A stretch of 64,000 nt of DNA from contig OY968796.1 in NCBI GenBank assembly GCA_963695545.1, positions 128,001 through 192,000 of the forward strand, written 5' to 3'. Under the pieces are notes generated by a model. The model searched no databases, was not told the origin of the DNA, and was given only the letters and a program-made list of their open reading frames with translations. The first letter of the stretch is position 1; every line of letters starts with the position of its first letter. This stretch comes from Terriglobia bacterium. GTDB taxonomy: Bacteria; Acidobacteriota; Terriglobia; Acidiferrales; UBA7541. Made by a program: the position numbers and the translations under genes. Shown one piece after another: positions 6,037 through 57,060 of the stretch.

Positions 6037-8706
6037 ATGAATTGGTTTACAAACTTGTTCTCGCGTCGCCGCCGCTACGATGACATCTCCGAAGAAATTC
6101 GCGAGCATCTCGACGAAAAAGTCGACGAGCTCGTCGCCGCCGGAATACCCCGTCCCGACGCCATCGCCGCCGCGCGCCGCCAGTTCGGCAATGTCGCTCT
6201 GATCGAAGAACGTACCCGCGAAGTCTGGCAATGGTCCTGGCTTGAAGATCTATTCGCCGACATCCGTTACGCTCTGCGCACGCTCCGCAAAAGCCCCGGC
6301 TTCACGGCCGTCGCCATCCCCACCCTCGCCCTCGGCATTGGCGCGAACACCGCCATCTTCAGCGTGGTCGATGCCGTGCTTTTCCGCGCGCTTCCTTATC
6401 GCGACCCGGGCCGCCTAGTCTGGGCGACGAACTTTTTCCCAGAGCAAGGTCAGGATTTCGTTTTTCAGAATATATATGCGGGTTGGCGCGATCAAAGCCA
6501 TGTGTTCAAGAGCATCGCAGCGTACTCGCCCTCGGCCGAATATACGCTTACTGGCGCGGGGTTCCCTGAACGCATGCGGGGCGCCCAAGTCACCTCAAGT
6601 TTCCTCGACGTCTTGGGCGTCACGCCGCAGCTTGGGCGCAACTTTATCCCGGAGGAAGGCCGCCCTGGCGGACCAAAGGTCGTGCTCTTGAGCGACGCAG
6701 TATGGAGGTCGATCTTTGGCTCCGATCCGAAAGTGGTCGGACGAGGCATCGCGCTTGACGGCACTCCCTATACGGTTGTTGGAGTGCTCCCGCGCGATTT
6801 CGAATTTCTCGACAATAGCTCGGTCGACCTGCTGGTTCCCATGCAGTTTGCGGACACTGCTATAGAGGAAGTGAACGGACGTGCGGTGTTCAGACTTGAG
6901 ACGATGCAGGTGGTGGCGCGGCTGCGGCCGCGCGTGAGTGTAAGCGCCGCAGTGTCCGAACTGGATCCGATCAACGAGCGCGTCGTGAGAGACCTTCCTA
7001 GCCACGGTATATGGCTGCTCAATGACGCGCAAGCCCAAGTGATTTCGCTCCACGATCGAGAGATCGGCAACGTGCGTCCGGCGCTGCTCGTGTTGTTGGG
7101 AGCGGTCGGGCTCGTGCTGCTGATTACCTGCGCGAACGTGGCCAACATGCAGCTTGCCCGAGCGGTCTCGCGTGATAAGGAGGTCGCCATTCGAGGTGCG
7201 CTTGGCGCAGGACGTTGGCGGCTGGCTCGGCTTCTGCTGACGGAGAGTTCTGCGGTAGCGCTGGCCGGCGGCGCAGCTGGACTGCTCCTGTCAGACTGGA
7301 CGATCCGGCTGATTCAGCGCTTTGGGCCCGCGAACATTCCGCACTTGCAAAGCGCGCGAATCGATGAGCGCGTGCTGATGTTTACGCTCGGGTTGTCGTT
7401 GCTCACGGGCATCTTGTTTGGATTCGCGCCGGTAGTGGCCGCGTTTCACGTCTCATTGAACGACACACTGAAGGACGGCGCTTCGCACAGCGGAGCGAGC
7501 AAGGCCACGCGGCGCGCACAACAGATGCTGATTGTGACGGAGATCGCGCTTTCCTTCGTCCTGTTCACTGGCGCCGGTCTGCTGGTGAAGAGCTTCCGTC
7601 GACTCACGGCGATCCATCTAGGATTCGATCCGCATGGAGTGCTGACGGCGCGCGTGGCGCTGCCGCGGGATCAATATCAATCCGAAGACCAGCAGCGGGC
7701 TTTTTTCCAGCAGCTTGTCGCGAAGCTCCAGGCTCTTCCCGGAGTTGATTCAGCGGGAGCAACGGCTTGGGTTCCGCTCCGCGGAATCACAATGTTCTCA
7801 TTGATAGGGATCGAGGGGCAGCCGCCGCCGGACTTTTCCATGTCCGACGTTCCGAACGCGAGCGCTAATTCCGTGACGCCGGGGTATTTCGCGGCTCTGC
7901 GCATTCCCTTGATTGAGGGCCGTCTTCTCGATGAGCGCGACGGCGCAAGCGCACCGAATCCAGTGCTCGTAAACCAGGTCTTTGTGCACCGGTACTTCCC
8001 GAACGGCAATGACCCGATCGGCCAGAAATTCAACGGCGACGTGGGCGCAGGAACCGACGGGCTGCAGACCGCCACCATTGTCGGAGTGATTGGCGACACC
8101 AACGAAGAAAGCCTGGTGCGCGAGACCATCCCGGAAATAACGGTGTCGGCGTTGGAGTATCCGCGATTCGCGATGACGCTTGTGCTACGCACATCGGCGG
8201 ACCCTCTAAGCCTTGTCTCGGCCGTTCGCTTGCAAGTAAGCGAACTCGATAAGAACCTGCCCATCTACGACGTGCAGACGATGGATAACGTGGTCTCCGC
8301 CGAAATCGCTTCGCAGAGATTCAATGCGGGTGCCGTGGCGGGTTTCGCAGGGCTTGCGGCGCTGCTGGCGGCGGTCGGAATCTATGGTGTGACGGCTTAC
8401 GCGGTCAGTCAACGGACGCACGAAATGGGCGTGCGCATCGCTCTCGGTGCCGGACCCCAGCAAGTGCGCCGCATGGTTGTGTTCCAGGGCATGACGCTCG
8501 CATTCGTCGGCGTGGCTTCGGGCGTCGGCTCCGCGCTCGCGCTCACGCGCCTGATGCGCAGCCTGCTCTTCGAGGTAAAACCATGGGATCCCATGACCAT
8601 GGTCCTCGTCGCCGTCCTGCTAGGCGCCGTCTCACTCGTCGCGACCTATCTCCCCGCCCGCCGCGCCAGCCGTGTCGACCCCATGGTCGCTCTTCGCTAC
8701 GAATAG
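6037..8706 (+). CDS. ADOP-type duplicated ABC permease, second copy
   Basis: same motifs as 3329..5992; near-identical ends, divergent middle. Confidence 0.95.
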   Translation: MNWFTNLFSRRRRYDDISEEIREHLDEKVDELVAAGIPRPDAIAAARRQFGNVALIEERTREVWQWSWLEDLFADIRYALRTLRKSPGFTAVAIPTLALGIGANTAIFSVVDAVLFRALPYRDPGRLVWATNFFPEQGQDFVFQNIYAGWRDQSHVFKSIAAYSPSAEYTLTGAGFPERMRGAQVTSSFLDVLGVTPQLGRNFIPEEGRPGGPKVVLLSDAVWRSIFGSDPKVVGRGIALDGTPYTVVGVLPRDFEFLDNSSVDLLVPMQFADTAIEEVNGRAVFRLETMQVVARLRPRVSVSAAVSELDPINERVVRDLPSHGIWLLNDAQAQVISLHDREIGNVRPALLVLLGAVGLVLLITCANVANMQLARAVSRDKEVAIRGALGAGRWRLARLLLTESSAVALAGGAAGLLLSDWTIRLIQRFGPANIPHLQSARIDERVLMFTLGLSLLTGILFGFAPVVAAFHVSLNDTLKDGASHSGASKATRRAQQMLIVTEIALSFVLFTGAGLLVKSFRRLTAIHLGFDPHGVLTARVALPRDQYQSEDQQRAFFQQLVAKLQALPGVDSAGATAWVPLRGITMFSLIGIEGQPPPDFSMSDVPNASANSVTPGYFAALRIPLIEGRLLDERDGASAPNPVLVNQVFVHRYFPNGNDPIGQKFNGDVGAGTDGLQTATIVGVIGDTNEESLVRETIPEITVSALEYPRFAMTLVLRTSADPLSLVSAVRLQVSELDKNLPIYDVQTMDNVVSAEIASQRFNAGAVAGFAGLAALLAAVGIYGVTAYAVSQRTHEMGVRIALGAGPQQVRRMVVFQGMTLAFVGVASGVGSALALTRLMRSLLFEVKPWDPMTMVLVAVLLGAVSLVATYLPARRASRVDPMVALRYE

Positions 8707-8787: not shown

Positions 8788-9092
8788 CAATTCGAACGCA
8801 CCCCAGGAAGAGGAAATCCTGTGGATTCCTATTCGAATAGCTATATAATTATATTGACGCATACGCTATCGACATGCTATGGTTCGGTATGAATCGCGAA
8901 CGCAAACCATCGCTAAAAAGCCCCGAGAATCGCCATTTTCAGCACCTTTTCACCCGCAACACTTCTAGAATCAACACTTCTGAAAAACGCCATTTTAAAC
9001 CTTTTGGAATCACCACTTCTGGCGCAAAGGACTTAAAGTCGATTAGAATCAGCACTTCCAAAAAAGCACCCGGGGGGGAGGGGGTACCCAGG
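8788..9092 (+). repeat. dispersed intergenic element copy 1 (TTCGAA palindrome, promoter, 39-bp-periodic GAATCANCACTT array, G-tract)
   Basis: CTATTCGAATAG 8829-8840; TTGACG 8854, TATGGT 8878; GAATCANCACTT at 8968, 9007, 9046; CCGGGGGGGAGGGGGTACCC at end. Confidence 0.7.
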
Positions 9093-9264
9093 CCTCCACG
9101 CATCGTCTTTTTCGATCCTTTCGCGGAACGTCTCGCCCCGCGCGACCGTCGGCATCGGCCCGCCCTCAACTATGGGCAAACGTTTACTCACATCTTCGTG
9201 CTAGAATCGCCCCGTTCGCGCCCCGTTCGCGCAGACGCCCCTACTTCCGAGGAGGAAGCCCGCC

Positions 9265-11397
9265 ATGCCAAAAGACATCACTCGCCGTCAATTCGTCGCA
9301 ACCGCGCTTTCCAGCGCCGCGATTTCATCCTTGGCTCTCGCCAAAGGAACTTCCGCGGATGCCGCTAATGCCGGCTCTGCTGCCGCCGCGTCACGGCCGC
9401 GCCAGGATGCCGCCGCTCCCGGCACAGACCAATATTCCTCCTGGCACGATCAGGGCGTTCTGAATCTCGCCCACTCGCCCTACGCCAAGCTGCATAGCGT
9501 CCCCGTCCGCGCTGTCACCATCGAAACTGGTTTCTGGGCCGCGCGCCGCGACGCCACCTTCTCGCAAAGCATTCCCACCATGCACGATCTCCTCGAATCC
9601 CATGGCCGCATGGATAATTTCCGCCGCCTGGTCGGCAAAAGCGACGCGCCGCAAATCGGGCCGGTCTATTCCGATTCCGACGTCTACAAATGGACCGAAG
9701 CAGTGGCCTTCACTCTTCAGTCCGGAGATCGCCCCGAGCTGCACAAAACCGCCGCGGACATCATCGACCTGATTGTCGCGGTGCAAAAACCGAACGGTTA
9801 CATCAACACGTATTTCGTCGGCGACCGCGCCGCTCTGAGCATGACTCCCGATACACAGCAGTCCGGCCACGAGCTCTATTGCCTCGGACACATGTTGCAA
9901 GGTGCCATCGCTTACTACCGCGCCACAGGCGACCGCAAGTGGCTCGACGCCGGAACACGAATGGTGGATGACTTCCTGATGCCCAGTTACGGCCCCGCGC
10001 CGAAGTTGCCCATCATCGCCGGCCACCCCGAAATCGAAATGTCGCTCATCGAGCTCTATCGCATCACCGGCGACAAACGGCAACTCGATCTCGCCGGTTA
10101 CATCCTCAACGGCGACGACCGCATCAAGTTCCCACGCCAGGCCAACATTTATTTGTTCTGCGGCACGCCCTTCATCGAACGCACTCAAATCGAAGGTCAC
10201 GCCGTGCGCGCCATGTACGCGTGCTCGGGCGCCGCCGACTACTATCTAGAAACCGGCGACCCCGCTTATTGGAAGACGCTGAATGTTCTGTGGGAAAGCA
10301 TGGCGGGTTCAAAAATGTACGTCACCGGCGGCCTCGGCGCGCGCGCGCAGGGAGAATCCTTTGGCGCCGCCTACGACCTGCCGAATGCCAGCGCCTACGC
10401 CGAAACCTGCGCCGCGATCGGCAACATGATGTGGAATTGGCGTCTGCTCGCCGCCACCGGCGACGCAAAATTCACCGACGTCCTCGAACGCGCGCTCTAC
10501 AACGGCGTCAATTCCGGAATGTCGCTCAGCGGCACGCTCTATTGCTACACCAATCCGCTGGCCTTCGATCCTTCCGCCGGCATCACCATTCGCAACCCCT
10601 GGTACAACACGGATTGCTGTCCGCCGAATTTCGAGCGCACGATGGCTTCCCTTCCCGGCTATTTCTACAGCACCGCGAGCGACGGCCTCTACGTTCATCT
10701 CTACGATAATTCCTCGCTCGATTGGCATCTCGAAGACGGCACGCCTCTCAAGGTCACGCAAAAAACAAATATGCCGTGGGATGGAGACGTCGAAATCACC
10801 GTGGCGCCCGCCCAGCCAACTGACTTCACGTTTTATCTGCGCATTCCCGGCTGGGCCGGCGACACCACACGCGTCGCCGTCAACGGCAAGCTTGTCTCGG
10901 GAGCAATGCCCGGCACGTATCTCCCGATCCATCGCCACTGGTCTTCAGGCGATGTAATTCAAGTGCGTTTCCCCATGACGCCACAGCCGCTTTCAGCCAA
11001 TCCCCACGTTGCCGACGACACCGGCCGCGTCGCCATCCAGCGCGGTCCCTTGGTCTATTGCCTCGAGCAGCTCGATCAGCCCGCCGAGGTGGATCTCACC
11101 GACAATTCACTCGCGGTCCGCATGAGGCCCGGCGCCGAATTCACTAGCGAAGTCAGAGAAGATTTCCTGGGCGGGATTGTCGTTCTGCATCGAGACGGCG
11201 TAGTCGCGGAATCGCACTCGCCGCAAGGCTCGCCAAATTCCAAAGCCGCACCTGCGCCACTCTACGGTCCATATCAAGATCAGGAAGCCAACGCGCGGTA
11301 TAGCCACACCGTACAGCTAACGTTCATTCCCTACTACGTGTGGGCCAACCGCGAGCCCAGCCAAATGCAGGTCTGGACTCCGGTCTCAAAGGTATAA
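9265..11397 (+). CDS. Tat-exported glycoside hydrolase family 127 (beta-L-arabinofuranosidase-like)
   Basis: TRRQF Tat motif; DSDVYKW, HELYCLGH, GHAVRA, ETCAAIG, CCPPN and QRGPLVYCLE motifs. Confidence 0.92.
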   Translation: MPKDITRRQFVATALSSAAISSLALAKGTSADAANAGSAAAASRPRQDAAAPGTDQYSSWHDQGVLNLAHSPYAKLHSVPVRAVTIETGFWAARRDATFSQSIPTMHDLLESHGRMDNFRRLVGKSDAPQIGPVYSDSDVYKWTEAVAFTLQSGDRPELHKTAADIIDLIVAVQKPNGYINTYFVGDRAALSMTPDTQQSGHELYCLGHMLQGAIAYYRATGDRKWLDAGTRMVDDFLMPSYGPAPKLPIIAGHPEIEMSLIELYRITGDKRQLDLAGYILNGDDRIKFPRQANIYLFCGTPFIERTQIEGHAVRAMYACSGAADYYLETGDPAYWKTLNVLWESMAGSKMYVTGGLGARAQGESFGAAYDLPNASAYAETCAAIGNMMWNWRLLAATGDAKFTDVLERALYNGVNSGMSLSGTLYCYTNPLAFDPSAGITIRNPWYNTDCCPPNFERTMASLPGYFYSTASDGLYVHLYDNSSLDWHLEDGTPLKVTQKTNMPWDGDVEITVAPAQPTDFTFYLRIPGWAGDTTRVAVNGKLVSGAMPGTYLPIHRHWSSGDVIQVRFPMTPQPLSANPHVADDTGRVAIQRGPLVYCLEQLDQPAEVDLTDNSLAVRMRPGAEFTSEVREDFLGGIVVLHRDGVVAESHSPQGSPNSKAAPAPLYGPYQDQEANARYSHTVQLTFIPYYVWANREPSQMQVWTPVSKV

Positions 11398-12159: not shown

Positions 12160-15100
12160 TCAATCGCCCGTCGCAGAAGCCTGCGGCAGATCCCGCTCGA
12201 GCCAATAGCTTGCCAACACCGGAATCAGCAAGAGTATCGCGAATGGCGCCGTGATCATGCCTCCCACAACGACTCGCGCCAGCGGCTGCTGGGCCTGCAC
12301 GCCGATCCCGCTCGAAATCGCCGCCGGCAGCAATCCGAATCCCGCCGCTGCGCAGGCCATGGCCACCGGCCGCATCTCGGCCAGCGCGCCTTGCTCGATC
12401 GCCGCGTGCATCGAAGCCGCGCCCTTCTCCTTGCGCCGGATGCCCGAGACGAACACCACGCCACCCAGCGTGCACACCCCGATGATTGACGCAAATCCCA
12501 CCGCCGCGGAAATACTGAACGGCGTCCCCGTCACCACCAGCGAAAGCAAACCGCCGCACGCCGCGAACGGCAGCATCACCAGCACCAGCAGCGCGTGCCG
12601 CAACGAATTGAACGCCGTGAACAACAACCCGAAAATCACGAGCAACGTAAGCGGAAGCACAATCGCGAGGCGCCGCTGCTCCTTCCGCAAGCTGTCGTAC
12701 TCGCCCGCCCATTCGTAGTGGTAGCCCTCGGGCAAATGAATCTGCTGCCTAAGTCGCCTCTGCATTTCTTCGATCGTGCTCGAAAGGTCTCGGCCGCGCA
12801 CGCTGAACTTCACTGGAATGTAACGCCGTCCATTTTCGCGATAGATCATGAACGCGCCTTCGTGCAGCGAGACGTCGGCGACTTGTCCCAATGGAACGCT
12901 GCTCCCACTCGGTGTGGGAAGAAGGATGTTGCGAATCTCCTCGGGCGTCGTGCGAAATCCGGGCTGATAACGGATCACGAAGTCGAACCGGCGGTCGCCT
13001 TCCAGAATTTGCGTCGCGGCGATGCCTCCGATGGCGGCCTGCACCGCGCTGTCAACGTCCGATGCCATCAGTCCGTAGCGCGCGCTCGCCGCGCGATCGA
13101 TCGAGATGAGCAGTTCGGGCTGTCCGGTCTCTTGGAACACGGCCAGGTCGGCGACGCCAGGTACGGTGGCCATCACGTCGCGAATCTCTCCGGCTTTTTC
13201 CACGAGCACGTCGATGTCATCGCCGAAAAGTTTCAGCGAATTCTCGCCCTTCACGCCCGACATGGCTTCTTCGACGTTGTCTTCGATGTTCTGCGAAAAA
13301 TTGAAGTCCACGCCCGGAAATTTTTCAAGCTCGCTGTCCATTTGGTTCACAAGCTTGTCCTTGGCCAGACCCGACGGCCAATCGCCCGGACTCTTGAGCG
13401 CAACCATGAACTCGATGTTGTTGAACGTGGTGACGTCCGTCCCATCGTCCGGCCGGCCCATCTGCGAAACGACTTCGGTGACTTCCGGATATTTCAGCAG
13501 GATCTCGCGGATGTCGTGCGCCATGCGCGCCCCGTCTTCGTACGAAGCATCCTGCGGCAGCGTCGCGCGTACCCACAAATTCCCTTCCTCGAGCTTGGGC
13601 ATGAATTCCCCGCCGACTCCGGTGCCCAACACCAGCGTGAACGCAAGCGCCGCGCCGGCAACGGCCAGCGTCGTTTTGCGGTGCGTGAGCACCCACCCGA
13701 GCATGCGCTCGTATCCGCGATACAACCAGGAGACCACGTGTGTCGGGGCGTTGCGAATTCGCTCCCGCCGAATCCACGAAGCCAGCACCGGCGCGAAGAT
13801 CACCGCAAAAATCAACGCGCCCACGAGCGCGAAACCGTAGGTTTCCGACATCGGCGCAAAAATTTGTCCCGGCACGCCCTGCATCGTAAATAACGGAATC
13901 AGCGCGACGATGATCACCAACACCGAAAACAGCACTGGCCGCACCGCTTCGGCGGTGGCGTCCGCAACCACTTCTCGCGTCGACGCATTCGGCGGCGATT
14001 GTTGCAGGCGCCGATACACGTTCTCAAGCACGATCACCGAAGCGTCCACCAGAATGCCGAAGTCGATCGCGCCAATCGAAATCAGATTCGCCGAGCCGCC
14101 GGTCAAAACCATCAGCGCAAATGCAAACAGGAGAGAGCACGGAATGGTCAGCGCAGCCATCAGAGAAACCGGCACGTCGCCCAAAAACACAATGAGCACG
14201 GCCGTCACCAGGATCAATCCCTCGATCACGATGTCGCGCACGGTCGCCGTCGTCACGTGAATCAAATTGGTGCGATCGTACAGCGTGATCAATTTCATCC
14301 CGCGCGGAAGCAATCCGCCGTTCAGCTCCGCCACTTTCTGCTCGAGCGCGCGCAACGCGGGCAAGGATTGCTCGCCGCGCTGCAACAGCACGATCCCCTG
14401 TACGGCGTCGTCGTCGTGATCCACACCCACTTGGCCGAGTCTGGGTTCCGAGCCCTCGTGCACGTCGGCGACATCGCGCAAGAAAACGGGAACGCCGTTG
14501 CGCTCAGTGATCAGGACGTCCTGCATCTCGGGAATGGTTTGCAGCAGGCCGAGACCCCGCACGTTCACGCTCTGGCTGCCCATGGTGAGATAGCTGCCGC
14601 CCGCGTTGGCGTTGCTGGCGCTCACGGCGGCGACAACTTGCGGCAACGTCACGTTGTACTGCAAGAGTTTGCGCGGATCGACTTCGGCGGAGTATTCGCG
14701 CGTGGTGCCGCCGAACGACGCGACGTCAATAATTCCGGACACTTCTTTGATTTCGCGCGTAACGAACCAGTCTTGCGTGGCCTTCAGTTCGTTGAGCGAA
14801 TATTCGGGGCCATACAAACGATAGCGGTAGATTTCGCCGACCGGCGATTCCGGCGAAAGTTGCGGCGAGACGTTGCCGGGCAGCGTGGCCAGTTGCAGGC
14901 GATTCAGAACCTCCTGGCGGTCCCATTTGTAGTCGCTGTCGTAATCGAAGTAGAGCTTGACGTCGCTCAAACCAAAAATCGAAATGGAGCGCACATACGT
15001 AAGCTTGGGAATTCCGAACAGAACCGTCTCGATCGGCACGGTCACTTGCCGCTCCATTTCCTCCGCGGACCACGAAGGATTCTGGGTGATTACTTCGACC

Positions 15101-15234
15101 AGAGGAGGCGAAGGGTCGGGATAAGCTTCGATATCGAGGCGCAGGAAAAAATAAATTCCCGCCGCGATCCACGCGAAAAGCGCCACGATCACGAGCGGGC
15201 GATAGCGCAACAGAGCGGCGATGAAATTGCGCAT
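12160..15234 (-). CDS. CusA/CzcA family heavy-metal RND permease
   Basis: LDIEAYPD, GAIDFGILVD, EFMPKLEEG, RPVAM..QQPLARVVVGG; 1024 aa. Confidence 0.95.
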   Translation of the reverse strand: MRNFIAALLRYRPLVIVALFAWIAAGIYFFLRLDIEAYPDPSPPLVEVITQNPSWSAEEMERQVTVPIETVLFGIPKLTYVRSISIFGLSDVKLYFDYDSDYKWDRQEVLNRLQLATLPGNVSPQLSPESPVGEIYRYRLYGPEYSLNELKATQDWFVTREIKEVSGIIDVASFGGTTREYSAEVDPRKLLQYNVTLPQVVAAVSASNANAGGSYLTMGSQSVNVRGLGLLQTIPEMQDVLITERNGVPVFLRDVADVHEGSEPRLGQVGVDHDDDAVQGIVLLQRGEQSLPALRALEQKVAELNGGLLPRGMKLITLYDRTNLIHVTTATVRDIVIEGLILVTAVLIVFLGDVPVSLMAALTIPCSLLFAFALMVLTGGSANLISIGAIDFGILVDASVIVLENVYRRLQQSPPNASTREVVADATAEAVRPVLFSVLVIIVALIPLFTMQGVPGQIFAPMSETYGFALVGALIFAVIFAPVLASWIRRERIRNAPTHVVSWLYRGYERMLGWVLTHRKTTLAVAGAALAFTLVLGTGVGGEFMPKLEEGNLWVRATLPQDASYEDGARMAHDIREILLKYPEVTEVVSQMGRPDDGTDVTTFNNIEFMVALKSPGDWPSGLAKDKLVNQMDSELEKFPGVDFNFSQNIEDNVEEAMSGVKGENSLKLFGDDIDVLVEKAGEIRDVMATVPGVADLAVFQETGQPELLISIDRAASARYGLMASDVDSAVQAAIGGIAATQILEGDRRFDFVIRYQPGFRTTPEEIRNILLPTPSGSSVPLGQVADVSLHEGAFMIYRENGRRYIPVKFSVRGRDLSSTIEEMQRRLRQQIHLPEGYHYEWAGEYDSLRKEQRRLAIVLPLTLLVIFGLLFTAFNSLRHALLVLVMLPFAACGGLLSLVVTGTPFSISAAVGFASIIGVCTLGGVVFVSGIRRKEKGAASMHAAIEQGALAEMRPVAMACAAAGFGLLPAAISSGIGVQAQQPLARVVVGGMITAPFAILLLIPVLASYWLERDLPQASATGD

Positions 15235-15240
15235 CGGGAT

Positions 15241-16377
15241 TTATTCCTGCGGCGCCGCGCGCAGCAGCAGCGCGCCTTCGGAAACCACCGTATCGCCGGG
15301 ATTGATTCCGGAAACGATTTCAAGCGAGCCATCGACCGCGCGTCCGAGCTTCACGTCGCGGCGCGCGTAGCGATTATTTCCGACGCCCACAAACACGTAA
15401 GCGCCGCTGCCTTCACGGATCACGGCGGCGGACGGTAGCAGGATTCCCGGTGAAGCAGAACGCAACAACCGGATCGTGCCGAACAGCGAGGGCTTCAACT
15501 CGCCTCTCGGATTTTCGAGCACCACGCGGACTTGCAACGCGCGCGTGACGGCGTCGACTGCGTCGGAGACGCCGCTGACGCGCCCATTCCACACCTCGCC
15601 CGGATACGCGTCCAGCGTCACCTGCGCTTGCTGGCCCGCCTTCGCCGCGGCCAGATCTTTCTCGTAGATATCGCCGACAGCCCAAACGGTCGAAATATCC
15701 GCGATCGTGCAAAGTGGCGCGGGCGCCGCCAGAGCGTTGGAATATTCGCCGGGCGCGGCGCCGACATCCAAAATTACGCCGCCGCGTGGCGCGACGACAT
15801 TCAGTCGATTGCTCGCGTGATCCGGATCCATTCCGAGTTCGCGAATCTGATCGCGCGTAGCCACAAGTTCCGCAGCGGCCATCTGCGCGTCGCCTTGCGC
15901 TTGCTGTAAATCTTTTTCGGCAATGGCCTGATGATCGTAAAGATCGCGCGCGCGCACGAGTTCATCCTGTTTCACCTGATTGTCAGCTTGCGCCTTGTGA
16001 TAGTCCGCGACGGCGCGCGCAAGGTCGCCGCTCTCGATCACCGCGAGCGTTTGTCCCTTTTCCACGCGATCCCAGGGACGAACTTTCATTTCAATGATCC
16101 GGCCGGTGGCGGGCGGATAGACGTGAACCACGAGCGTTGGATCCGGATCGATGTGCGCGGGCAATTCGAGATATTCGGGAATCGGAGATTCCGCCACTTT
16201 CACGGTCTGAATGCCGCGCGCATCGGGGGCAACGTACTCGCCGGCGCTTCCAGCGGAATCCGCCGCGCTTGCATCGGCCTGAGACTGCACACCCGCGCCG
16301 GCGGAGCCGCCGCAGCCAACGGCGAGAAAAGCGGCGATCAATCCCACACATCCGAGGAACCACGCCCGTGCTTTCAT
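15241..16377 (-). CDS. RND periplasmic adaptor subunit (lipoprotein)
   Basis: start MKARAW, lipobox AVGC, barrel-sandwich RVEKGQTLA, IADISTVW. Confidence 0.92.
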   Translation of the reverse strand: MKARAWFLGCVGLIAAFLAVGCGGSAGAGVQSQADASAADSAGSAGEYVAPDARGIQTVKVAESPIPEYLELPAHIDPDPTLVVHVYPPATGRIIEMKVRPWDRVEKGQTLAVIESGDLARAVADYHKAQADNQVKQDELVRARDLYDHQAIAEKDLQQAQGDAQMAAAELVATRDQIRELGMDPDHASNRLNVVAPRGGVILDVGAAPGEYSNALAAPAPLCTIADISTVWAVGDIYEKDLAAAKAGQQAQVTLDAYPGEVWNGRVSGVSDAVDAVTRALQVRVVLENPRGELKPSLFGTIRLLRSASPGILLPSAAVIREGSGAYVFVGVGNNRYARRDVKLGRAVDGSLEIVSGINPGDTVVSEGALLLRAAPQE

Positions 16378-20868: not shown

Positions 20869-21834
20869 TCATATGACCTCTTCCACTCGCGGGGACGGGG
20901 CGGCCAGGCGATCGACTTCGGCGAGTTCTTCGGCAGAGAGATGCCAATCGGCGGCGCGGACATTTTGCTCGACTTGCTCGGGCTTGGTGGCGCCGGCGAT
21001 GACGCTTGAGACGGGCTGCTGCGCGGCGAGCCACGCGATGGCCAAATCGAGAAGATTGTGGCCGCGCGGCGCGCAGAATTTTTCGAGACGCTCGACGACT
21101 TCCCAATTCGCGTCGGTGATGTAGCGATCGGCGAGGTGCTTGGCGGTGTTCAGGCGCGCGCCCGCGGGCATGGGCTGGCCGCGCTTGTACTTGCCGGAGA
21201 GGAAGCCGCCGGCCAGCGGGAAATATGGGAGCAGGCCGAGGCCGTACGCGCGCATGGCGGGAATCAATTCGCGCTCGGGCTCGCGGACGATCAGACTGTA
21301 TTCATCCTGGCAGGAAATGAAGGCGTGCGTGCCGATGGTGCGCGCGGTCCACTGGGCTTCGACGACTTGCCATGCCTGCAAATTGGAGCAACCGATGTAG
21401 CGGACCTTGCCCTGCTGGATCAGGTCTTCGAGAGCGCGCAGAGTTTCTTCGATCGGAGTTTTTGGGTCCGGGCGATGGAGCTGATAGAGATCGATCCAAT
21501 CGGTGCCGAGGCGGCGCAGGCTGGCTTCGGCGGCGGACATGACGTAGGCGCGCGCGGCGCCGCGCATGGTTTTGGCGTCGTCCATGGCCATGCCGAACTT
21601 GGTGGCGAGAACGATGTCTTTTCGGCGCGCTCCGAGGCTTTGGCCGAGCATGATTTCGGAGCCGCCCTTGTTGCCGTAAATGTCGGCGGTATCGAAAAGC
21701 GTGATGCCGAGATCGAGCGCTTTCGCGACCACGCGGCGCGTGGTCTCGAGATCGGTGCGGCTGCCGAAATTATTGCAGCCCAGACCGACGAGCGAAACTT
21801 CTAGCGGCGAGTTGCCGAGAGTGCGGTGCTTCAT
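20869..21834 (-). CDS. aldo/keto reductase
   Basis: FDTADIYG, LATKFG, SLRRLGTDWIDLYQLH, GKVRYIGCSN. Confidence 0.95.
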   Translation of the reverse strand: MKHRTLGNSPLEVSLVGLGCNNFGSRTDLETTRRVVAKALDLGITLFDTADIYGNKGGSEIMLGQSLGARRKDIVLATKFGMAMDDAKTMRGAARAYVMSAAEASLRRLGTDWIDLYQLHRPDPKTPIEETLRALEDLIQQGKVRYIGCSNLQAWQVVEAQWTARTIGTHAFISCQDEYSLIVREPERELIPAMRAYGLGLLPYFPLAGGFLSGKYKRGQPMPAGARLNTAKHLADRYITDANWEVVERLEKFCAPRGHNLLDLAIAWLAAQQPVSSVIAGATKPEQVEQNVRAADWHLSAEELAEVDRLAAPSPRVEEVI

Positions 21835-21932
21835 GGCGAGTTCTCCCGAGGGCTGACGGAGTATCGCGCTTTTGATGCGCGGCGGGCTCGCGGCGGCGCT
21901 GCAGTCGGGTCGAAAGAGGACGAGAAAACTTG

Positions 21933-22292
21933 GGGCCTATATACACCCCCGGTATGTTTTTGCGAAAGTATTGAAAATACATGGGTTGCGGCAAAAGAGT
22001 GCGGATGAGTGTGAAAATACAGGGACTTGAAATCGAGTCGATTCAATGTGTTGCGCACTCTTTTGCAATGAATTGAAAACAAATGGGTTGCAGAGGCGAT
22101 TTGTTGCATAGAAATGCAAAGTGCGACGGGGCTGGAGCGGAGTGGAAGGCGGGCGCTGGACGGAAGCGACGATTCGAAAAGTTTTCGCGAGTACATGCCT
22201 ACGTATACCACGATAATTCCCACACGTCAACAATAATTTATAAGTATACTATTCGAATAGATTCCGCGGCGCCGTTTTGCGCCATTCGAAAA
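21933..22292 (-). repeat. dispersed intergenic element copy 2
   Basis: CTATTCGAATAG 22249-22260; minus-strand TTGACG (22230-22225), 17 bp, TATACG; sites with TGAAAA cores at 21972, 22012, 22074; minus-strand AAAAACATACCGGGGGTGTA end. Confidence 0.7.
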
Positions 22293-22298
22293 GATTGT

Positions 22299-22548
22299 GT
22301 CGCCCCTACGGGGCTTGCACGGGCTGGGCTTGTGTACCCAGGGCTTCCGCCCTGGGCTAAAATGTATCGCCCCTACGGGGCTGAATCACAGTGCCGACCG
22401 CGATCGCACGGCGTGGCGCGCGGTTTTAGCAGCACGGCCACTCTTGGCGGTGCGGGGTCTGGATTTTTAATTCCGAAAAACCAAAGGCACACGGGCAAGA
22501 GTGCCTGTGCTACCGAAACCAAGATGGAGGCCTGAAGGCCTGCGCTAC
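22299..22548. repeat. cluster of REP-like palindromes (BIME-like)
   Basis: cgcccctacggggct x2 (22301, 22368) flanking cccagggcttccgccctggg; minus-strand GTAG-headed hairpins at 22486-22513 and 22528-22548. Confidence 0.7.
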
Positions 22549-24062: not shown

Positions 24063-24627
24063 GGAATTTTCCCCGGTGGGCGCGAATCCATCCGGGCTAC
24101 GACCCGAACGCGCGCCCGCGAGGGTTCGCATAACATATCACAATCGTTCGGGCGGCTCCGCGCACCGAAGCGTCGCGAAAGAGTTCAGACGCGAGCGAAA
24201 GCGGAGAACGCGCCCGGCGCCGCCACGTGAGAAAGCGAGATCCGCGTAGTTCGGCGACATTCTGCGCGTTCAACGAATTGGGACAGCGACATTGGCGGAG
24301 GTGCGATGCCATTGGAATGCCATACGATGCAACAGATTGATCTAACCTGAACAGCTGCTTAGACCGTGGTGAAGCTCGGCGCACAGGCGGCGGCCCAAAC
24401 TCCGTCCGGGGAGGGGTGGCGATATCTGGAGACATTGCTGGCACAAGTGCTTGCGATTCAATTGGTTACGCTGCGCGGGGGGCGCGACCGGGCAGGCTGG
24501 GCCCCTAAACAAAACCTAAATTGATGCGATTGAAAATTCGCGTTGTACATAACGACACATAGACGCAACAATGCCGCCCTCGATGCAGTTCCGCACGTCC
24601 GCAATCCCTTAAGGAGGGAACAATTCG

Positions 24628-26421
24628 ATGGCCGATGAAGCCAAAGCAGAGATGGTACCAACTTTAGGCCTTACAGGGCTCACGGTGAACGGCATGGCAT
24701 TGATTGCGCCCGGCGCCTTTCTTTGGCTGACGTTTTACGGGCAGTCGACCGAGGGCGCCACGTCGCCGGCCATGTGGGCGGGGATTTTTCTCGCCTTATT
24801 GCTGTGTTTGGCGACAGCGGTGTCGTACGCCGAACTGGCAAAGCTGTATCCCGGCACCGGAAGTTCCTACTATTTCGCGGAGCAATCGTTCCTAAATCAT
24901 GAGAAGGCCTGGAAGTGGGCGCGCTTGATGAAATTTATCACCGGCTGGGGTTCGCATCTTTACTACTGGATCTACCCCGCGGTGATGGTGGCCACGACCG
25001 GAATCTTCTGCGGTTACGTGGTGGGCACGCTTTGGCCGAACTTCATGAGCGCCTCGAATCCGGGTCCGATGTTCATGATGCTCGTGGCGATCATCTTCTC
25101 GTTCGCGGTTTCGTACATCGCGCACAGAGGGGTGATCGGCTCGACAGGAGTGAGCGTGGCGATCAATGTGATTCAAATTTCGGCGTTGATCGTCTTCTCG
25201 GTGATGTGCATCAGCTACCGCGTGAAGCATGCGCCGGGCAGCGTGGCCTTCCAATTCGATCCGACCACGGGCGAGGCTTACACCTATCAATTCGCATCCA
25301 CAACGGCGGCGGATGGAACGGTGACGATCACGCGCGATGCGAACAATGTTCCGGTGCCGCTGATGGACGCGAGCGGCAAGCCGGTTCCTTACACCATCAG
25401 CTATCCGACCACAGACAGCAGCGGCAACTTCCTGACGCATCCGAGCGCCAAGTCGGTGATCGCGCCGCACGGAATCGCCAATGTGTTCGTGCAAGCCACA
25501 GTGGCGATCCTGATCCTGGTGGGATTCGAGTCCATCACATCGTTGGGCGGTGAGGCCAAAAACCCCAAGCGGGACATCCCCATCGCGGTGATCGCGTCAC
25601 TGCTCATACAGGGGGCCTTCTGTTATCTGTTTGAGTATTTTGCGACGCTGTATTTCTTAAATAGCGGCTACACCATGCAAAGTGCGGGAGGATCAGCGGC
25701 GCCCATCGGCGACATGATGGTGGTCGTCGGCGACGCGCTGTTCGGCCAAGGGCATGGCCGCACGTTCATGCTGGTGGAAGCGTTCACCGTGTTCCTGGCG
25801 CTGATCGGCACGACGCTCTCTTGCATCAACACCGGGGCGCGCGTGACGTACGCCATGGGCAAGGATCAGGAAGTTCCCGAACACTTCGGCATGCTGCACT
25901 CGAAGAACCTGAGCCCCCACCGCGCGATTTGGACGCTCGCGGTGATCTCGGCGGTCCTCGGGTGCGTCGGCTGCATCACGATTTTCGCCGACTCCAGCGC
26001 GCCCACGGACGCCGTGATCGCGGCGCTACCTCACGGCTTCTGGTCGAGTTTCGGGTACATGAGCCACGCCAGGCTGGCGAATCTGCCAAACTCGTGGACG
26101 ACGCTGACGCTGGCTTCCAACTTCGGCACGTTCCTGCTATACGGGCTGAGCTGCTTCATCTGCATGGTGGCCTATCACAACCACCCCAACTTCAAATTCA
26201 TCCGGCACTGGGCAATCCCGGCGTTCGGAATCCTGGCGAACGTGATTTGTATGGCGTTCTACCTGATCGGGCCGTTCCTGGGGTTCGGAACAAAAATGGA
26301 GCCGTTCACCGCGTTGGGAATTGCGGCGGTGTGGGCCATATACGGTGGCATCTACTTCGTGCGCTCAAGTAAGGCGAGCGGGCGAACGACGTTCGTCACC
26401 AATCGCGCCACCAACAGTTGA
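24628..26421 (+). CDS. APC family permease
   Basis: IAPGAF TM1, SYAELA..GSSY, LVGFES..EAKNPKRDIP; RBS AAGGAGG. Confidence 0.92.
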   Translation: MADEAKAEMVPTLGLTGLTVNGMALIAPGAFLWLTFYGQSTEGATSPAMWAGIFLALLLCLATAVSYAELAKLYPGTGSSYYFAEQSFLNHEKAWKWARLMKFITGWGSHLYYWIYPAVMVATTGIFCGYVVGTLWPNFMSASNPGPMFMMLVAIIFSFAVSYIAHRGVIGSTGVSVAINVIQISALIVFSVMCISYRVKHAPGSVAFQFDPTTGEAYTYQFASTTAADGTVTITRDANNVPVPLMDASGKPVPYTISYPTTDSSGNFLTHPSAKSVIAPHGIANVFVQATVAILILVGFESITSLGGEAKNPKRDIPIAVIASLLIQGAFCYLFEYFATLYFLNSGYTMQSAGGSAAPIGDMMVVVGDALFGQGHGRTFMLVEAFTVFLALIGTTLSCINTGARVTYAMGKDQEVPEHFGMLHSKNLSPHRAIWTLAVISAVLGCVGCITIFADSSAPTDAVIAALPHGFWSSFGYMSHARLANLPNSWTTLTLASNFGTFLLYGLSCFICMVAYHNHPNFKFIRHWAIPAFGILANVICMAFYLIGPFLGFGTKMEPFTALGIAAVWAIYGGIYFVRSSKASGRTTFVTNRATNS

Positions 26422-47534: not shown

Positions 47535-49043
47535 TCAAACGAAACCGTCGATCGCGGCGCGGGCCACGCGCGCTGCCGGTGCCGCGACGCCGGAGCCACA
47601 ATTGTCTGGCGCGGCCGGCGCGATTGGCTGCGCAATGCCGATTGAAACGAACTGCTCGCGCGCCGGTTCGGCGCAGCAATACCACGGCTCGTCGAAATGC
47701 GGGATCGCGGCGAGGGCGCCCGCCGGTAACTGCCATGCGGTAGCTTCGCCTGCAATACCGTCAGCTTCAGCGGCAGATTGCCAGATCGCCGCGAAGATTT
47801 GCGCGCGGCTCAATTTCGCCGCCTCGCCCCGCTCCACGATTTCCTGCACGCGTCGACCGAGCGCATCCACGCGCGGATCGCCATGGCGCCAAGGGTATGC
47901 GAGGCCCGCGCGATCGAACGGCTCGACGAGATCCTGCACTTCCGGCAATTCGAGCAACCGCGATCCGGCGGGAATCAATAGACGGATCGCTAGTTGAATC
48001 GGCGGAACGTTGGCCACGAAATCGCATTCCGCGATCACGCTCAGCAGATCGCGAAAGCCCGCGAGCGTCGTCCACGGCGTGAACGGAACGAAGGTCGGCT
48101 GAAGGATCAAACCCAGTTCGCGAAAGTTGTGCGCGACAGCCAAAAAATCCGCGCGCGTGTGGCCCTTGTCGAGACGCTCGAGAATCGCGTCGTCGACGGA
48201 TTCGACCGCGCTCGTAACGAACAGACAGCCCGTGTCGCGAAGCTCGGGCAAAAGATCGGCGTGGCGCAGCAAATGTTCGATCTTGATCGTCACGTCGTAC
48301 GTCACGCCCGGAAATTCGCGATGCATCGCGCGAACGATCGCGAGTCCATGCGTCGGCCCATTGAAAAAATCGGGATCGCCAAAAGTGATGTGCCGTGCGC
48401 CCGCGGCAACTTGTTGCCGCACGTCAGCAAGCACAATTTCGCGCGCAACAACGCGAAAAGTTCCGTTGTAGACCGGCACAATCGGGCAGTGCCGGCAGAG
48501 ATGTTTGCAGCCTCGGCTCGCTTCCGTGTATCCCGCGAGAATTTCTTCGCCGCTTGGCATTTGCAGCCGCGCATAAAGATCGAGCGCCGGCAATTCCTCG
48601 CGCCTCGGCACAAGAAAATCCTGTCGTGCGAGTGAAATCGTCGGCTCGGCTTGAGCGCCCGGCTCGCGACTCTCGCCGCGTTCAAGCCGATCGGCCAGAT
48701 CGGAGAGGCCCGTCTCAAATTCGCCGCCGAGAATTGTTTCGACGCCGAGTGCTTTAAGGAAATCCTGATTCATCGGCGCGTATAAGCCGTAGCAACAGAT
48801 GTTCGCGCGCGAATTCAGTCGCCGCACGCGCTCAATTTGTTCCGCCGCCAGCCGCGTCGCCGTGTGCATCGGCAAGTGAAATGCGACGAGATCCGCACCG
48901 CGAATTGCATCTTCGTCGAGCGCCTGCCGCGAACGATCGCGACACGCAACGTCGTGTCCGCGCGCGGCGAGCCACGCCGCCGGCGACGCCAAACCGAACG
49001 GCGGCCGACCGAGTTCGTACGTCGATATCAGAACGATTCGCAT
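47535..49043 (-). CDS. B12-binding radical SAM protein with CCAEP tail
   Basis: N-terminal cobalamin-binding-like domain, SRGCKHLCRHC, C-terminal EPWYCCAEP. Confidence 0.9.
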   Translation of the reverse strand: MRIVLISTYELGRPPFGLASPAAWLAARGHDVACRDRSRQALDEDAIRGADLVAFHLPMHTATRLAAEQIERVRRLNSRANICCYGLYAPMNQDFLKALGVETILGGEFETGLSDLADRLERGESREPGAQAEPTISLARQDFLVPRREELPALDLYARLQMPSGEEILAGYTEASRGCKHLCRHCPIVPVYNGTFRVVAREIVLADVRQQVAAGARHITFGDPDFFNGPTHGLAIVRAMHREFPGVTYDVTIKIEHLLRHADLLPELRDTGCLFVTSAVESVDDAILERLDKGHTRADFLAVAHNFRELGLILQPTFVPFTPWTTLAGFRDLLSVIAECDFVANVPPIQLAIRLLIPAGSRLLELPEVQDLVEPFDRAGLAYPWRHGDPRVDALGRRVQEIVERGEAAKLSRAQIFAAIWQSAAEADGIAGEATAWQLPAGALAAIPHFDEPWYCCAEPAREQFVSIGIAQPIAPAAPDNCGSGVAAPAARVARAAIDGFV

Positions 49044-49103
49044 CGCGTGGCTGGAGCTCGCCTCAGTTCGCCGTCGCAATCCATTGTAGTCCATCGCGGT
49101 GAG

Positions 49104-50048
49104 TCACTGTGGCACGCTCACAGGTTGGGGGAGCGACGGGAATGGCGGGCGGACGGAGACGGCGGTCGCGGTCGGAAAATCCGCGGGCACCGGAATCGTG
49201 ACGGGCCTGTGCGCCAGCCATTGAATCGCGCGCGGGATTAGCGTTTGCACGGCGGCGCAGCGCATGCTCACGGGTTGCACGTCGCCGGGCCAGATGTGGC
49301 CGTAGGTGGAAACGTAAACGCGGCCTTTACCGTAGCGTACGGTCCATTCAACCGGCCACAGCAATCCCTGGCCGGGTTTTGAATCGCGCGCGTAGGCGAG
49401 GACGCGTAAATTTTTCGCGGGGCCGCGCGTGTAGTAGTAAACCTCCATGTAGGGCGAGAGCCATTGGCGCGGCATTCCGGCGTGGATGGGATCTTCGCCC
49501 AGGCGCGTGACCAGCACGTCGCCGCGCGGGCCGTGATTCGTATCGCCGCCGACGCCCGGCGGGATGCGCACCATCTTTCCGTTCGCATCCATGCGAATCG
49601 AGGTTCCGTAGTCCGCTTTGCGCCACAACAGCGCGACCATCTTCTCGTATTCGGTCCAGCCGATGAAGGCGTTTTCGGCGCCGTGGAAAATGTAGACGCC
49701 GCCGCCATTGCGCACGAAATTCTCAAAATCTTTTTGCACCGGCTCGGGCCAAACATTCGGGTGGTGGTAATCGTTGCAATTTTGGATCACCACGTCGTAA
49801 TCGGAAAATTTCGGGCGCCAGGTGCCCCAGGCGGGATCGCCGGCTTTCGCCGGCGCTGTGCTCACGGAGACGTCGAATAAACCGGACGGCGCAAGGATCG
49901 CTTGAATCATCGCGGTGGTCTGCTGCCAATCGTGATTGTTGTATCCATCCACGATGAGCACTCGGATTTTCGGGGCGTCGGCTCGTGCGGGAGCCAGCGC
50001 GGCGAAGAACGCGATGACGAGGCAGATAATTAGCGAACGGCGATTCAT
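49104..50048 (-). CDS. secreted ThuA-like domain protein
   Basis: signal peptide, VLIVDGYNNHDW, FVRNGGG, YGKGRVY..GH. Confidence 0.85.
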   Translation of the reverse strand: MNRRSLIICLVIAFFAALAPARADAPKIRVLIVDGYNNHDWQQTTAMIQAILAPSGLFDVSVSTAPAKAGDPAWGTWRPKFSDYDVVIQNCNDYHHPNVWPEPVQKDFENFVRNGGGVYIFHGAENAFIGWTEYEKMVALLWRKADYGTSIRMDANGKMVRIPPGVGGDTNHGPRGDVLVTRLGEDPIHAGMPRQWLSPYMEVYYYTRGPAKNLRVLAYARDSKPGQGLLWPVEWTVRYGKGRVYVSTYGHIWPGDVQPVSMRCAAVQTLIPRAIQWLAHRPVTIPVPADFPTATAVSVRPPFPSLPQPVSVPQ

Positions 50049-56634: not shown

Positions 56635-57060
56635 GGATAATTTGCTGATTTTAAGGGACTTCGTCGCTGTCTTCGGCATTGCCACGCGCAGTGGATGCGG
56701 ATGGGGGAGGGGGTACCCCGGGTACCCAGTTTGTAAGTTTATGTAGATACAAGGCTTGCGGGAAATGTGTGCACGAGGAGTGTGGAATGTGCTGAAAATA
56801 AGCGAGTTATCAAATCCTCTTTGTGCCTTATTTTCAATGAGTTGCGCACTGCTTGGGAGGCGTGCGGATATTACTGATAACAAGGGAGTTGTTGGAACGT
56901 TTTGGTTCGGATTCCGGGGCGAGGCGGAGGCAGGCGGAAGACGGAGCGACGGCGGGAAAAGTGGGGTCGGCGACCAATTCGAATTGATTGCGGCGAACAC
57001 GCAGAAGAGTATCACAAATGAATTCAAGTGTCAACTACTAAATAAGTATTCGAAACAACA
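56635..57060 (-). repeat. dispersed intergenic element copy 3
   Basis: TTCGAA 57049-57054; minus-strand TTGACA (57034-57029), 17 bp, TACTCT; related sites at 56637, 56733, 56785, 56833, 56867; GGGGGAGGGGGTACCCCGGGTACCC at 56703. Confidence 0.7.

What the first reader, a model, noticed from the sequence alone, without database searches (positions are those of the whole stretch)
8788..9092. Dispersed non-coding element family (copy 1): operator + promoter + periodic site array + G-tract
Seen: palindrome CTATTCGAATAG (8829), TTGACG-18-TATGGT with TGn extension, then GAATCANCACTT at 8968, 9007 and 9046 (exact 39-bp period). The sites are pseudo-palindromic (e.g. AAGTCGATT-AG-AATCAGCACTT). The element ends AAAAAAGCACCCGGGGGGGAGGGGGTACCC. 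The same ordered architecture recurs at 21.9-22.3 kb and 56.6-57.1 kb beside unrelated genes, so it is not a gene-specific promoter. Inference: a genome-wide family that is (a) a regulated ncRNA carrying repeated protein-binding sites, (b) a non-autonomous element with recombinase-like core sites, or (c) a chromosome-architecture or loading site. I know of no named element with this layout, but could not search.
Basis: partly seen in the sequence, partly recalled or inferred. Interest (0 to 1): 0.85.

Follow-up and report, generated by a model that had tools for sequence, protein, structure and literature searches.

The report
Scattered origin-like cassettes in soil Acidobacteria
A soil acidobacterium carries about 110 evenly spaced copies of a small DNA cassette (promoter, a reading frame kept open whatever it encodes, repeated protein-binding-like sites), and its strand bias in base composition flips about 4 kb beyond nearly every copy, so they likely act as many local start points for DNA copying, probably inherited from a phage DNA-packaging module, in a domain of life thought to use one start point per chromosome.

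Summary
This Ca. Acidiferrales-related genome has 112 evenly spaced copies: TTCGAA operator, sigma70-type promoter, leaderless start codon, a frame open through IHF-like sites (88 of 93; other frames 5 and 13), and a G-rich end. The peptide is not conserved. Codon-corrected GC skew flips, origin-like, about 4 kb downstream: 56 of 62 flips have a copy pointing at them (null 21), sign changes fall midway between copies, and no global skew remains, although oriC and KOPS-like polarity are intact. Four copies carry a zinc-finger gene ending in a small-terminase-type tail; a single-copy phage head cluster occurs in 77 of 112 family genomes. Other genera use a second, mutually exclusive array family with the same flip; a capsid-bearing stretch without arrays is flat; 8 of 20 array-rich genomes show no terminase. 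Best reading: transcription-gated start sites for local two-way DNA synthesis, derived from a terS-pac module (0.5); rival: packaging sites (0.25). Nothing is shown experimentally. This scan reported the family and skew link before, from other windows of this genome.

The parts
8791..8796 (+). Copy 1: upstream TTCGAA half-site
   Evidence: family D7
8810..8828 (+). Copy 1: degenerate DnaA-box-like stretch (GGAAATCCTGTGGAT, also present upstream of dnaA in this genome)
   Evidence: such a 9-mer lies upstream in 38 of 101 copies against 0.007 per 45 nt of intergenic DNA; binding is inference
8829..8840 (.). Copy 1: palindromic operator CTATTCGAATAG, 19-28 nt before the -35 box in most copies
   Evidence: 48 of 49 genomic TATTCGAATA sites lie in copies; binding protein unknown
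8854..8883 (+). Copy 1: sigma70-type promoter TTGACG-18-(TGC)TATGGT
   Evidence: activity inferred, no RNA data
8889..9368 (+). Copy 1: leaderless open frame (159 codons) running through the array and into the next gene; peptide not conserved across copies
8968..9057 (+). Copy 1: subtype A array, three pseudo-palindromic IHF-like sites at 39-bp period
   Evidence: IHF-consensus matches (<=1 mismatch) 131 in copy bodies against 28.6 shuffled; consensus recalled
9060..9089 (+). Copy 1: A-run, CCGGGG and G-tract end; in gene-bearing copies the zinc-finger gene starts shortly after it
14000..16000 (.). Origin-like flip of codon-corrected GC skew (about -0.4 to +0.4), pointed at by copy 1 and copy 2
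   Evidence: (genome minimum 142,500)
21831..22260 (-). Copy 2 (subtype B): operator 22249-22260, -35 from 22230, ATG 22196, array, CCGGGGGTGTATATA end near 21952; the 121-codon frame stops overlapping the start of the next gene (21834)
48000..50000 (.). Second origin-like skew flip, pointed at by copy 3
   Evidence: (genome minimum 177,000)
56703..57055 (-). Copy 3 (subtype B): operator 57046-57055, -35 from 57034, GTG 57000, array, GGGTACCC end near 56721; its frame stays open antisense through the convergent gene to 54322

Best explanation
The cassettes sit about 4 kb upstream of origin-like flips in strand bias and likely act as transcription-gated start sites for local two-way DNA synthesis, probably descended from a phage small-terminase/packaging-site module. 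Shown: fixed layout, open leaderless frame, coupling of its stop to the next gene, skew flip with orientation and offset, midway sign change, zinc-finger gene with a small-terminase-type tail in full-length copies. Inferred steps: (1) an IHF/HU-family protein bends the array; (2) release of the TTCGAA operator lets RNA polymerase fire, and a ribosome loaded at the leaderless start keeps the transcript coupled, so that it is not terminated in the AT-rich array and runs on for kilobases; (3) the zinc-finger protein, made from a few copies, binds the arrays in trans and brings a large terminase that cuts near the G-rich end; (4) the downstream end is resected for a few kb and recombination-dependent forks start there and run both ways until they meet forks from the neighbouring copies; (5) this happens in the heritable lineage often enough to overwrite the oriC-based skew. 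Steps 3-4 are the weakest; direct loading of the host helicase is the alternative trigger.
For: Frame open to the G-tract in 88 of 93 copies, 9 stops against 218 and 231 in the other frames; subtype B uses all three frames at a fixed anchor (33/9/2); third codon positions no more variable than second in 14 subtype A copies (0.17 vs 0.18). Leader stop within -12..+20 nt of the next co-oriented start in 21 of 64 copies (other frames 8, 4); it reaches the convergent gene in 23 of 24 (13, 15). Skew: 56 of 62 minima have a copy pointing at them within -1..12 kb (shift null mean 20.9, max 36), median offset 3.8 kb; 1 of 63 maxima (104-copy set); same for genes on either strand, intergenic DNA and either downstream orientation; one oriented kernel explains 47% of 1-kb variance (null max 6%), global replichore term 0.003 (null sd 0.0035); jump positive at 105 of 112 copies; sign change at 0.49-0.58 of the interval in all four orientation classes and moves out with interval length. 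Spacing CV 0.57 against 0.98 for random intergenic picks. Replicated around 27 zinc-finger loci of other genomes (-0.31 to +0.25), 11 family-1 arrays in 5 genomes and 7 family-2 arrays in 2 genomes; a 200-kb stretch of capsid-bearing G083 without arrays is flat (sd 0.079 vs 0.20-0.32). Ancestry: tail IIWD[IM]PGP shared with genes directly upstream of the large terminase in viral contigs and relatives (hhalign 92%, E 7e-7); model has zinc-finger region, two long helices and tail, the domain order given for small terminases in PMC6854486 (passages). Co-folding with the terminase: weak support, score 0.35, best of 3 controls 0.00, runs agree in at least 41% of contacts, partner pLDDT at least 62; that mark was reached by 116 of 157 solved and 2 of 215 mismatched pairs, but at 0.60 or under by only 18 solved pairs and both mismatches, and it may reflect likeness to solved terminases.
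Against: No experiment; skew records asymmetric mutation, not initiation. oriC looks intact (boxes and TAG repeats between dnaA and dnaN), one dnaA and one dnaB, and GMAGGGAA is polarised about the dnaA-terminus axis (144/57 and 39/147). Only 48% of genes lie on the local 'leading' strand. The 4-kb offset is unexplained and does not follow the length of the downstream transcription unit (rho 0.18, p 0.14). Against the terminase trigger: no large terminase found in 8 of 20 family-1-rich genomes and 2 of 15 family-2-rich genomes, and no zinc-finger homologue in any of those 15. Flips without a detected array remain: 6 of 62 here, G062 at 81 and 545 kb, G015 near 238 kb, the G076 stretch (sd 0.32); array-free, capsid-free G021 still has sd 0.136.
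Confidence: 0.5

Rival explanations
1. The cassettes are packaging-start (pac) sites for the resident gene-transfer-agent-like head cluster or for related helper phages; the skew is a by-product of repair synthesis around the ends of transferred fragments, not of chromosome replication.
For: Small-terminase-type tail and weak co-folding support; capsid gene in 77 of 112 family genomes, mostly single copy, mostly 74-92% identical, syntenic in G001; the cluster's own small-terminase-like gene is short, three helices plus tail; mean spacing 36.7 kb is near a podovirus headful (recalled); tails persist in terminase-less genomes, which fits helper phages.
Against: Sign change scales with spacing rather than a fixed length; no kernel feature near +40 kb; array-rich genomes without terminase keep strong skew (G090 sd 0.24); no terminase, portal or capsid within 8 kb of 32 zinc-finger loci and no array in 80 viral terminase loci; most fixed mutations would have to come by this route.
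Confidence: 0.25
2. The cassettes are selfish or domesticated mobile promoters that drive the next gene and settle at a fixed distance from skew flips made by something else.
For: 76 of 104 have a co-oriented downstream gene and leader stops are coupled to it; positions are lineage-specific: 1 of 41 matching downstream genes in six relatives had an array within 900 nt, and in 5 cases the flanking genes abut where this genome has 4-5 kb extra; some flips lack a copy.
Against: 28 copies face convergent genes and show the same skew; the skew of orthologous genes is only weakly shared between genomes (rho 0.25, n 73, G062), so flips follow the present copies; two unrelated array families give the same kernel; even spacing.
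Confidence: 0.1
3. The arrays are chromosome-architecture or loader sites (IHF-bent boundaries, loading of a translocating or repair complex) that expose one strand on each side without starting replication.
For: IHF-like site enrichment; even spacing, no strand or replichore preference (56/56); intact oriC and KOPS-like polarity.
Against: Does not account for sign changes midway between copies, the loss of global skew, or the terminase-type gene.
Confidence: 0.1
4. The copies are recombination sites whose inversions chopped a normal two-arm skew into pieces, or they are regulated non-coding RNAs with protein-binding repeats.
For: Pseudo-palindromic sites; subtype B folds below shuffles (mean z -1.97).
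Against: Inversion would give up and down switches exactly at copies and flat segments; seen are up-switches only (50 of 62 minima, 1 of 63 maxima), 4 kb away, with sloping segments, and global octamer polarity is intact. The antisense strand folds as well (z -1.71), consensus fold is empty for 78 B copies, and the frame is kept open.
Confidence: 0.05

Closest known systems
Bartonella BaGTA with its run-off replication origin (PMC2697382, passages read)
   Same: A domesticated phage head cluster plus a probably phage-derived extra start site for bidirectional replication of host DNA.
   Different: One origin with its own helicase there; here about 110 sequence-defined sites, no second DnaB-family helicase, a lasting genome-wide skew imprint, and sites that persist without a detectable head cluster.
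Gene transfer agents RcGTA and DsGTA (PMC6854486 passages; PMC5786225 abstract)
   Same: Conserved single-copy head cluster; short small terminase; DsGTA packaging peaks are regularly spaced.
   Different: No pac-equivalent sequence has been implicated in those GTAs; here a sequence family and a separate zinc-finger protein with the terminase-type tail are dispersed over the chromosome. Particles are not shown here.
Phage terS-pac modules (P22, SPP1, P1) and the TerS of phage satellites (recalled, not read)
   Same: Promoter, bent repeat array with IHF-like sites and a G/C-rich end directly before a small-terminase-like gene.
   Different: Chromosomal, about 110 copies of which 4 carry the gene; no large terminase nearby; marks replication-like skew.
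Phage lambda origin inside gene O, and break-induced stable DNA replication of E. coli (recalled, not read)
   Same: Repeats inside a translated frame behind a promoter with a DnaA-box-like site; initiation that depends on transcription or on a cut.
   Different: The frame encodes no conserved initiator; the cluster's O-like gene is found in 0 of 17 genomes of an array-rich genus and 3 of 3 of an array-poor one; the flip lies 4 kb away.
Proposed multi-origin bacteria (PMC3269012, passages read) and eukaryotic skew N-domains (recalled)
   Same: Many polarity changes; sharp up-jumps with linear decline between.
   Different: In the passages seen, those bacterial cases rest on skew shape, with a warning about other causes; here each flip has an oriented sequence element.
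IHF-binding REP composites RIP/BIME-1 and mobile promoters (recalled)
   Same: About 100 intergenic copies with IHF-like sites or a promoter.
   Different: No REP hairpin arms, no terminal repeats; own leaderless frame and skew link.

Membership tests
Rfam non-coding RNA family | Match to a covariance model; conserved strand-specific fold | tested here: not met
   No match over the copies at gathering score or, for copy 2, above noise; consensus fold empty for B, z equal on both strands
MITE / IS end | Terminal inverted repeats | tested here: not met
   Longest inverted match between own flanks 6.3 vs 6.5 in shuffled pairings, 94 copies
MITE / IS end | Target-site duplication and precise empty sites | tested here: inconclusive
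   Direct matches 6.7 vs 6.7, but copies are old (median identity 66-80%) and relatives too distant for precise empty sites
Bacterial oriC | Cluster of DnaA boxes with unwinding element at the skew flip | tested here: not met
   No perfect box near any copy; a variant 9-mer in 38 of 101; flip 4 kb away
Replication origin (any type) | Bidirectional strand asymmetry, sign change between neighbours | tested here: met
Replication origin (any type) | Fork initiation shown in cells | not testable with these tools
   Needs nascent-strand or marker-frequency data
Small terminase (zinc-finger gene) | DNA-binding N-terminus, helical core, C-terminal TerL-binding segment | tested here: inconclusive
   Domain order and tail fit; 91 of 168 full-length homologues match the tail pattern; fold searches gave only generic helical matches; co-folding weak
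Small terminase (zinc-finger gene) | Encoded next to a large terminase | tested here: not met
   No terminase hit in 32 loci with up to 8 kb flanks
Gene transfer agent (head cluster) | Conserved single-copy head genes at a fixed chromosomal place | tested here: met
Gene transfer agent (head cluster) | Particles that carry host DNA | not testable with these tools
   No culture or particle data
pac site | Cleavage and packaged-DNA ends at the site | not testable with these tools
   No particle reads

The most novel reading that the evidence does not exclude
Acidiferrales chromosomes are routinely replicated from about a hundred dispersed, transcription-gated origins domesticated from a phage packaging module, in two interchangeable sequence families, while oriC is kept as a minor or licensing origin: a eukaryote-like multi-origin bacterial chromosome.
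Probability: 0.3. Interest if true: 0.97.

Novelty: categorically new. Interest (0 to 1): 0.86.

Why it matters
One origin per chromosome is the rule for bacteria, and proposed exceptions rest on skew shape. Here an oriented, deletable 300-bp element predicts half of the local skew of a whole chromosome and recurs across an abundant soil lineage, which makes the multi-origin question directly testable. If the packaging reading is right instead, it would be a gene transfer agent with sequence-defined start sites tiled over its host genome. The rule 'keep the frame open, ignore the peptide' also explains a large class of spurious hypothetical proteins in Acidobacteria annotations.

Tried and rejected
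Rfam: nothing over the copies. Literature: 0 papers for Acidobacteria + intergenic repeat + leaderless, Acidobacteriota + repetitive element + integration host factor, terminase + cos site + stable DNA replication + double-strand break; one unrelated listing each for GC skew + Acidobacteria + multiple origins and gene transfer agent + Acidobacteriota + terminase; lateral transduction + GC skew gave 7 unrelated listings. The library lacks most subscription papers; no supplements were read. Zinc-finger protein: no Pfam family, no match in viral contigs or GenBank phages, no Foldseek match at E<=0.001 in PDB or viral models, best VIA Z 6.8 at rmsd 2.6 over 67 residues, generic; Atlas nearest named cluster DUF5763 at 0.84, a lead only. 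No solved structure by sequence for the terminase; no Phage_portal Pfam hit. The small-terminase alignment found no such gene in three family-2 genomes although they have one before the terminase, so that search is insensitive. Sequencing runs: four soil DNA assemblies of one study, no RNA holder listed; read-level ends, coverage and expression, and the orthologous site of copy 1, stayed unchecked. O-like initiator as the trans factor: rejected by distribution. Codon-usage or gene-strand artefact, transcription-associated mutation (wrong sign for the first 4 kb, extends 20 kb upstream) and assembly artefact (replicates in other genomes): rejected. Conserved small peptide: rejected.

Full report
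Observation. The window lies at 128,001-192,000 of a 4.16-Mb single contig, 60.6% GC. Its zinc-finger gene has homologues in records named Ca. Acidiferrales, Ca. Acidiferrum and Acidobacteria gp2; I place the genome there by that evidence. A profile of 79 strict promoter modules found 104 copies at E<0.01; array profiles found an array behind 102 of them and 12 further array hits without a module hit, of which I kept 8 as extra copies and dropped 2 weak hits and 2 arrays cut off from their promoter by an insertion, giving 112. They split 56/56 by strand and 56/56 by replichore, with mean spacing 36.7 kb and CV 0.57 against 0.98 (minimum 0.75) in 2000 random intergenic picks. A DNA search with copy 1 hit 10 of 18 other family genomes and 0 of 12 outside the family.

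Anatomy. Order is fixed: a variant DnaA-box-like 9-mer (38 of 101 copies; 35 of the 74 genomic ATWTCCACA sites lie at copies; the same variant stands upstream of dnaA), TTCGAA operator, TTGAC-17/18-TGnTAnnnT promoter, start codon 34-36 nt after TTGAC (98 of 101 parsed; 3 copies had no parsable -35), 150-600 nt with an array, then CCGGGG. Subtype A (15) has the 39-bp period; subtype B (80, a label that also holds unassigned copies) has other spacing. Matches to the recalled IHF consensus number 131 against 28.6 in shuffles, and the genome has three IHF/HU-family genes. Conservation fades about 20 nt before the operator and 15 nt after the G-run; there are no terminal inverted repeats or flanking direct repeats above control.

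The frame. In 93 copies with a start codon and a located end, the frame from the predicted +1 is open to the G-run in 88 (other sense frames 5 and 13, antisense 2-4); stops number 9 against 218 and 231. Subtype B reads its conserved anchor in three frames (33/9/2), and subtype A shows no third-position excess. The stop is coupled to the next co-oriented start (21 of 64 against 8 and 4), in-frame fusion is not enriched (11 against 9 and 7), and convergent genes are entered in 23 of 24. Selection is thus on continuous translation, not on a peptide; avoidance of transcription termination is my inference.

Skew. Using fourfold sites with the codon mean removed, the element strand is C-rich from about -22 kb to +4 kb (-0.32) and G-rich from +4 to +30 kb (+0.20). 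It holds for genes on either strand, more weakly in intergenic DNA, and for 76 co-oriented and 28 convergent downstream genes. 56 of 62 cumulative minima have a copy pointing at them (null 20.9, max 36 of 2000 shifts); the kernel explains 47% of 1-kb variance (30 shifts: max 6%); the global replichore term is zero within error. Between inferred start points the skew declines steadily and changes sign near the middle in all orientation classes, further out in longer intervals (the rank correlation 0.68 is partly built in, the binned profiles are not). This is the shape expected from forks that start together and meet. Against a simple multi-origin reading: oriC features (recognised from recall) are intact, GMAGGGAA is polarised about the dnaA axis, and genes are not co-oriented with local skew (48%).

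Other genomes. Around 27 of 32 zinc-finger loci (5 dropped at contig edges) pooled skew runs -0.31 to +0.25; 14 show the promoter pattern and 9 the strict end motif upstream. In 60 genomes that I picked by hand to mix capsid-positive and capsid-negative ones, 20 have at least 7 forward hits of the end motif, and 18 of these have the zinc-finger gene. Stretches of genomes lacking the motif still had saw-tooth skew, which led to a second array family (TCTAATCG repeats around the same IHF-like core). It has at least 7 hits in 15 genomes, none of the 20 above, and none of the 15 has a zinc-finger homologue. In 2.7 Mb of fetched stretches, 11 family-1 and 7 family-2 arrays give the same kernel, crossing zero near +4 kb (detection filters were tuned after seeing profiles, and kin are not independent). 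G034 has three flips in 200 kb and an array pointing at each; G083 (capsid present, no array in the stretch) is flat; G021 is intermediate; several flips stay unexplained, above all in G076. Positions are not conserved: 1 of 41 matching downstream genes had an array within 900 nt (one more at about 1.2 kb; some matches may be paralogues), and in 5 cases copy plus upstream DNA looks like a 4-5-kb insertion between core genes.

Phage link. Four copies are followed by a roughly 140-residue CCCH-type zinc-finger gene, a family of 2,132 clusters at 50% identity without Pfam name. Its tail matches a short gene in the genome's phage head cluster (3.384-3.418 Mb: terminase, capsid, transglycosylase, O-like initiator) and genes directly upstream of the terminase in 9 of 80 viral loci, with looser versions in many more and in 5 of 6 relatives. 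PMC6854486 (passages) gives the C-terminus of small terminases as the terminase-binding part. Co-folding gave weak support (0.35 against 0.00; figures under best explanation). The capsid gene is in 77 of 112 family genomes, but the terminase was not found in 8 of the 20 and 2 of the 15 array-rich genomes, several 97-100% complete, while tails persist in some of them (5 of 12 loci from terminase-less genomes). The O-like gene does not track the arrays.

Mechanism and odds. Start sites for local two-way synthesis derived from a terS-pac module 0.5; packaging sites with secondary skew 0.25; mobile promoters 0.1; architecture or loader sites 0.1; inversion sites or ncRNA 0.05. The layout, open frame, skew relation and gene homologies are shown; binding, cutting, initiation and particle production are inferred. 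Comparisons with lambda, P22, SPP1, P1, stable DNA replication, N-domains and BIME-1 are recalled. Papers seen: PMC6854486, PMC2697382, PMC3269012 (passages), PMC5786225 (abstract); others as listings only. Searches found no description of this element. Expression, read-level ends and the orthologous site of copy 1 remain unchecked.

Noticed in passing
window 22337-22382 and 22422-22520: Rfam Acido-Lenti-1 match inside a REP-like palindrome cluster, with a further 31-nt inverted repeat, directly upstream of copy 2.
   Followed up: no
window about 24230-24650: Two isolated IHF-like sites and a C/G-rich stretch between divergent genes, without promoter module; not counted as a copy.
   Followed up: no
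L012:1-20000, L013:1-7000, L014:12400-20000 (genome 3.384-3.418 Mb): Single-copy, family-wide phage head cluster near the terminus: a candidate undescribed gene transfer agent of Acidiferrales. Two genes that look like an IS3 pair (by eye) sit between portal-like and capsid genes.
   Followed up: partly
L280-L285; G062, G034 stretches: Second dispersed array family (TCTAATCG repeats 65-70 bp apart around an IHF-like core), in genera that lack family 1; no partner gene identified.
   Followed up: partly
L070-L079 (G076), L242-L259 (G021): Strong or moderate skew flips without either array family; a third family or relic skew is possible.
   Followed up: partly
whole genome G000: GMAGGGAA is the most polarised octamer about the dnaA-terminus axis, a likely KOPS equivalent.
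   Followed up: partly
genome 245,288 and 346,842: Two subtype A arrays are cut off from their promoters by an inserted element, apparently an IS.
   Followed up: no
whole genome G000, +3 to +8 kb from copies: Genes tend to point back toward the copy in the zone of the flip (strand bias -0.2 to -0.3 after +0.45 at 0-2 kb), so flips fall in convergent zones, unlike ordinary origins.
   Followed up: no
window 6037-8706; L150 (G062 571.9 kb): A gene ending DPMVALRxE (ABC-permease-like, by recall) lies directly upstream of an array in two genera and two array families; upstream DNA has lower coding density and GC.
   Followed up: partly
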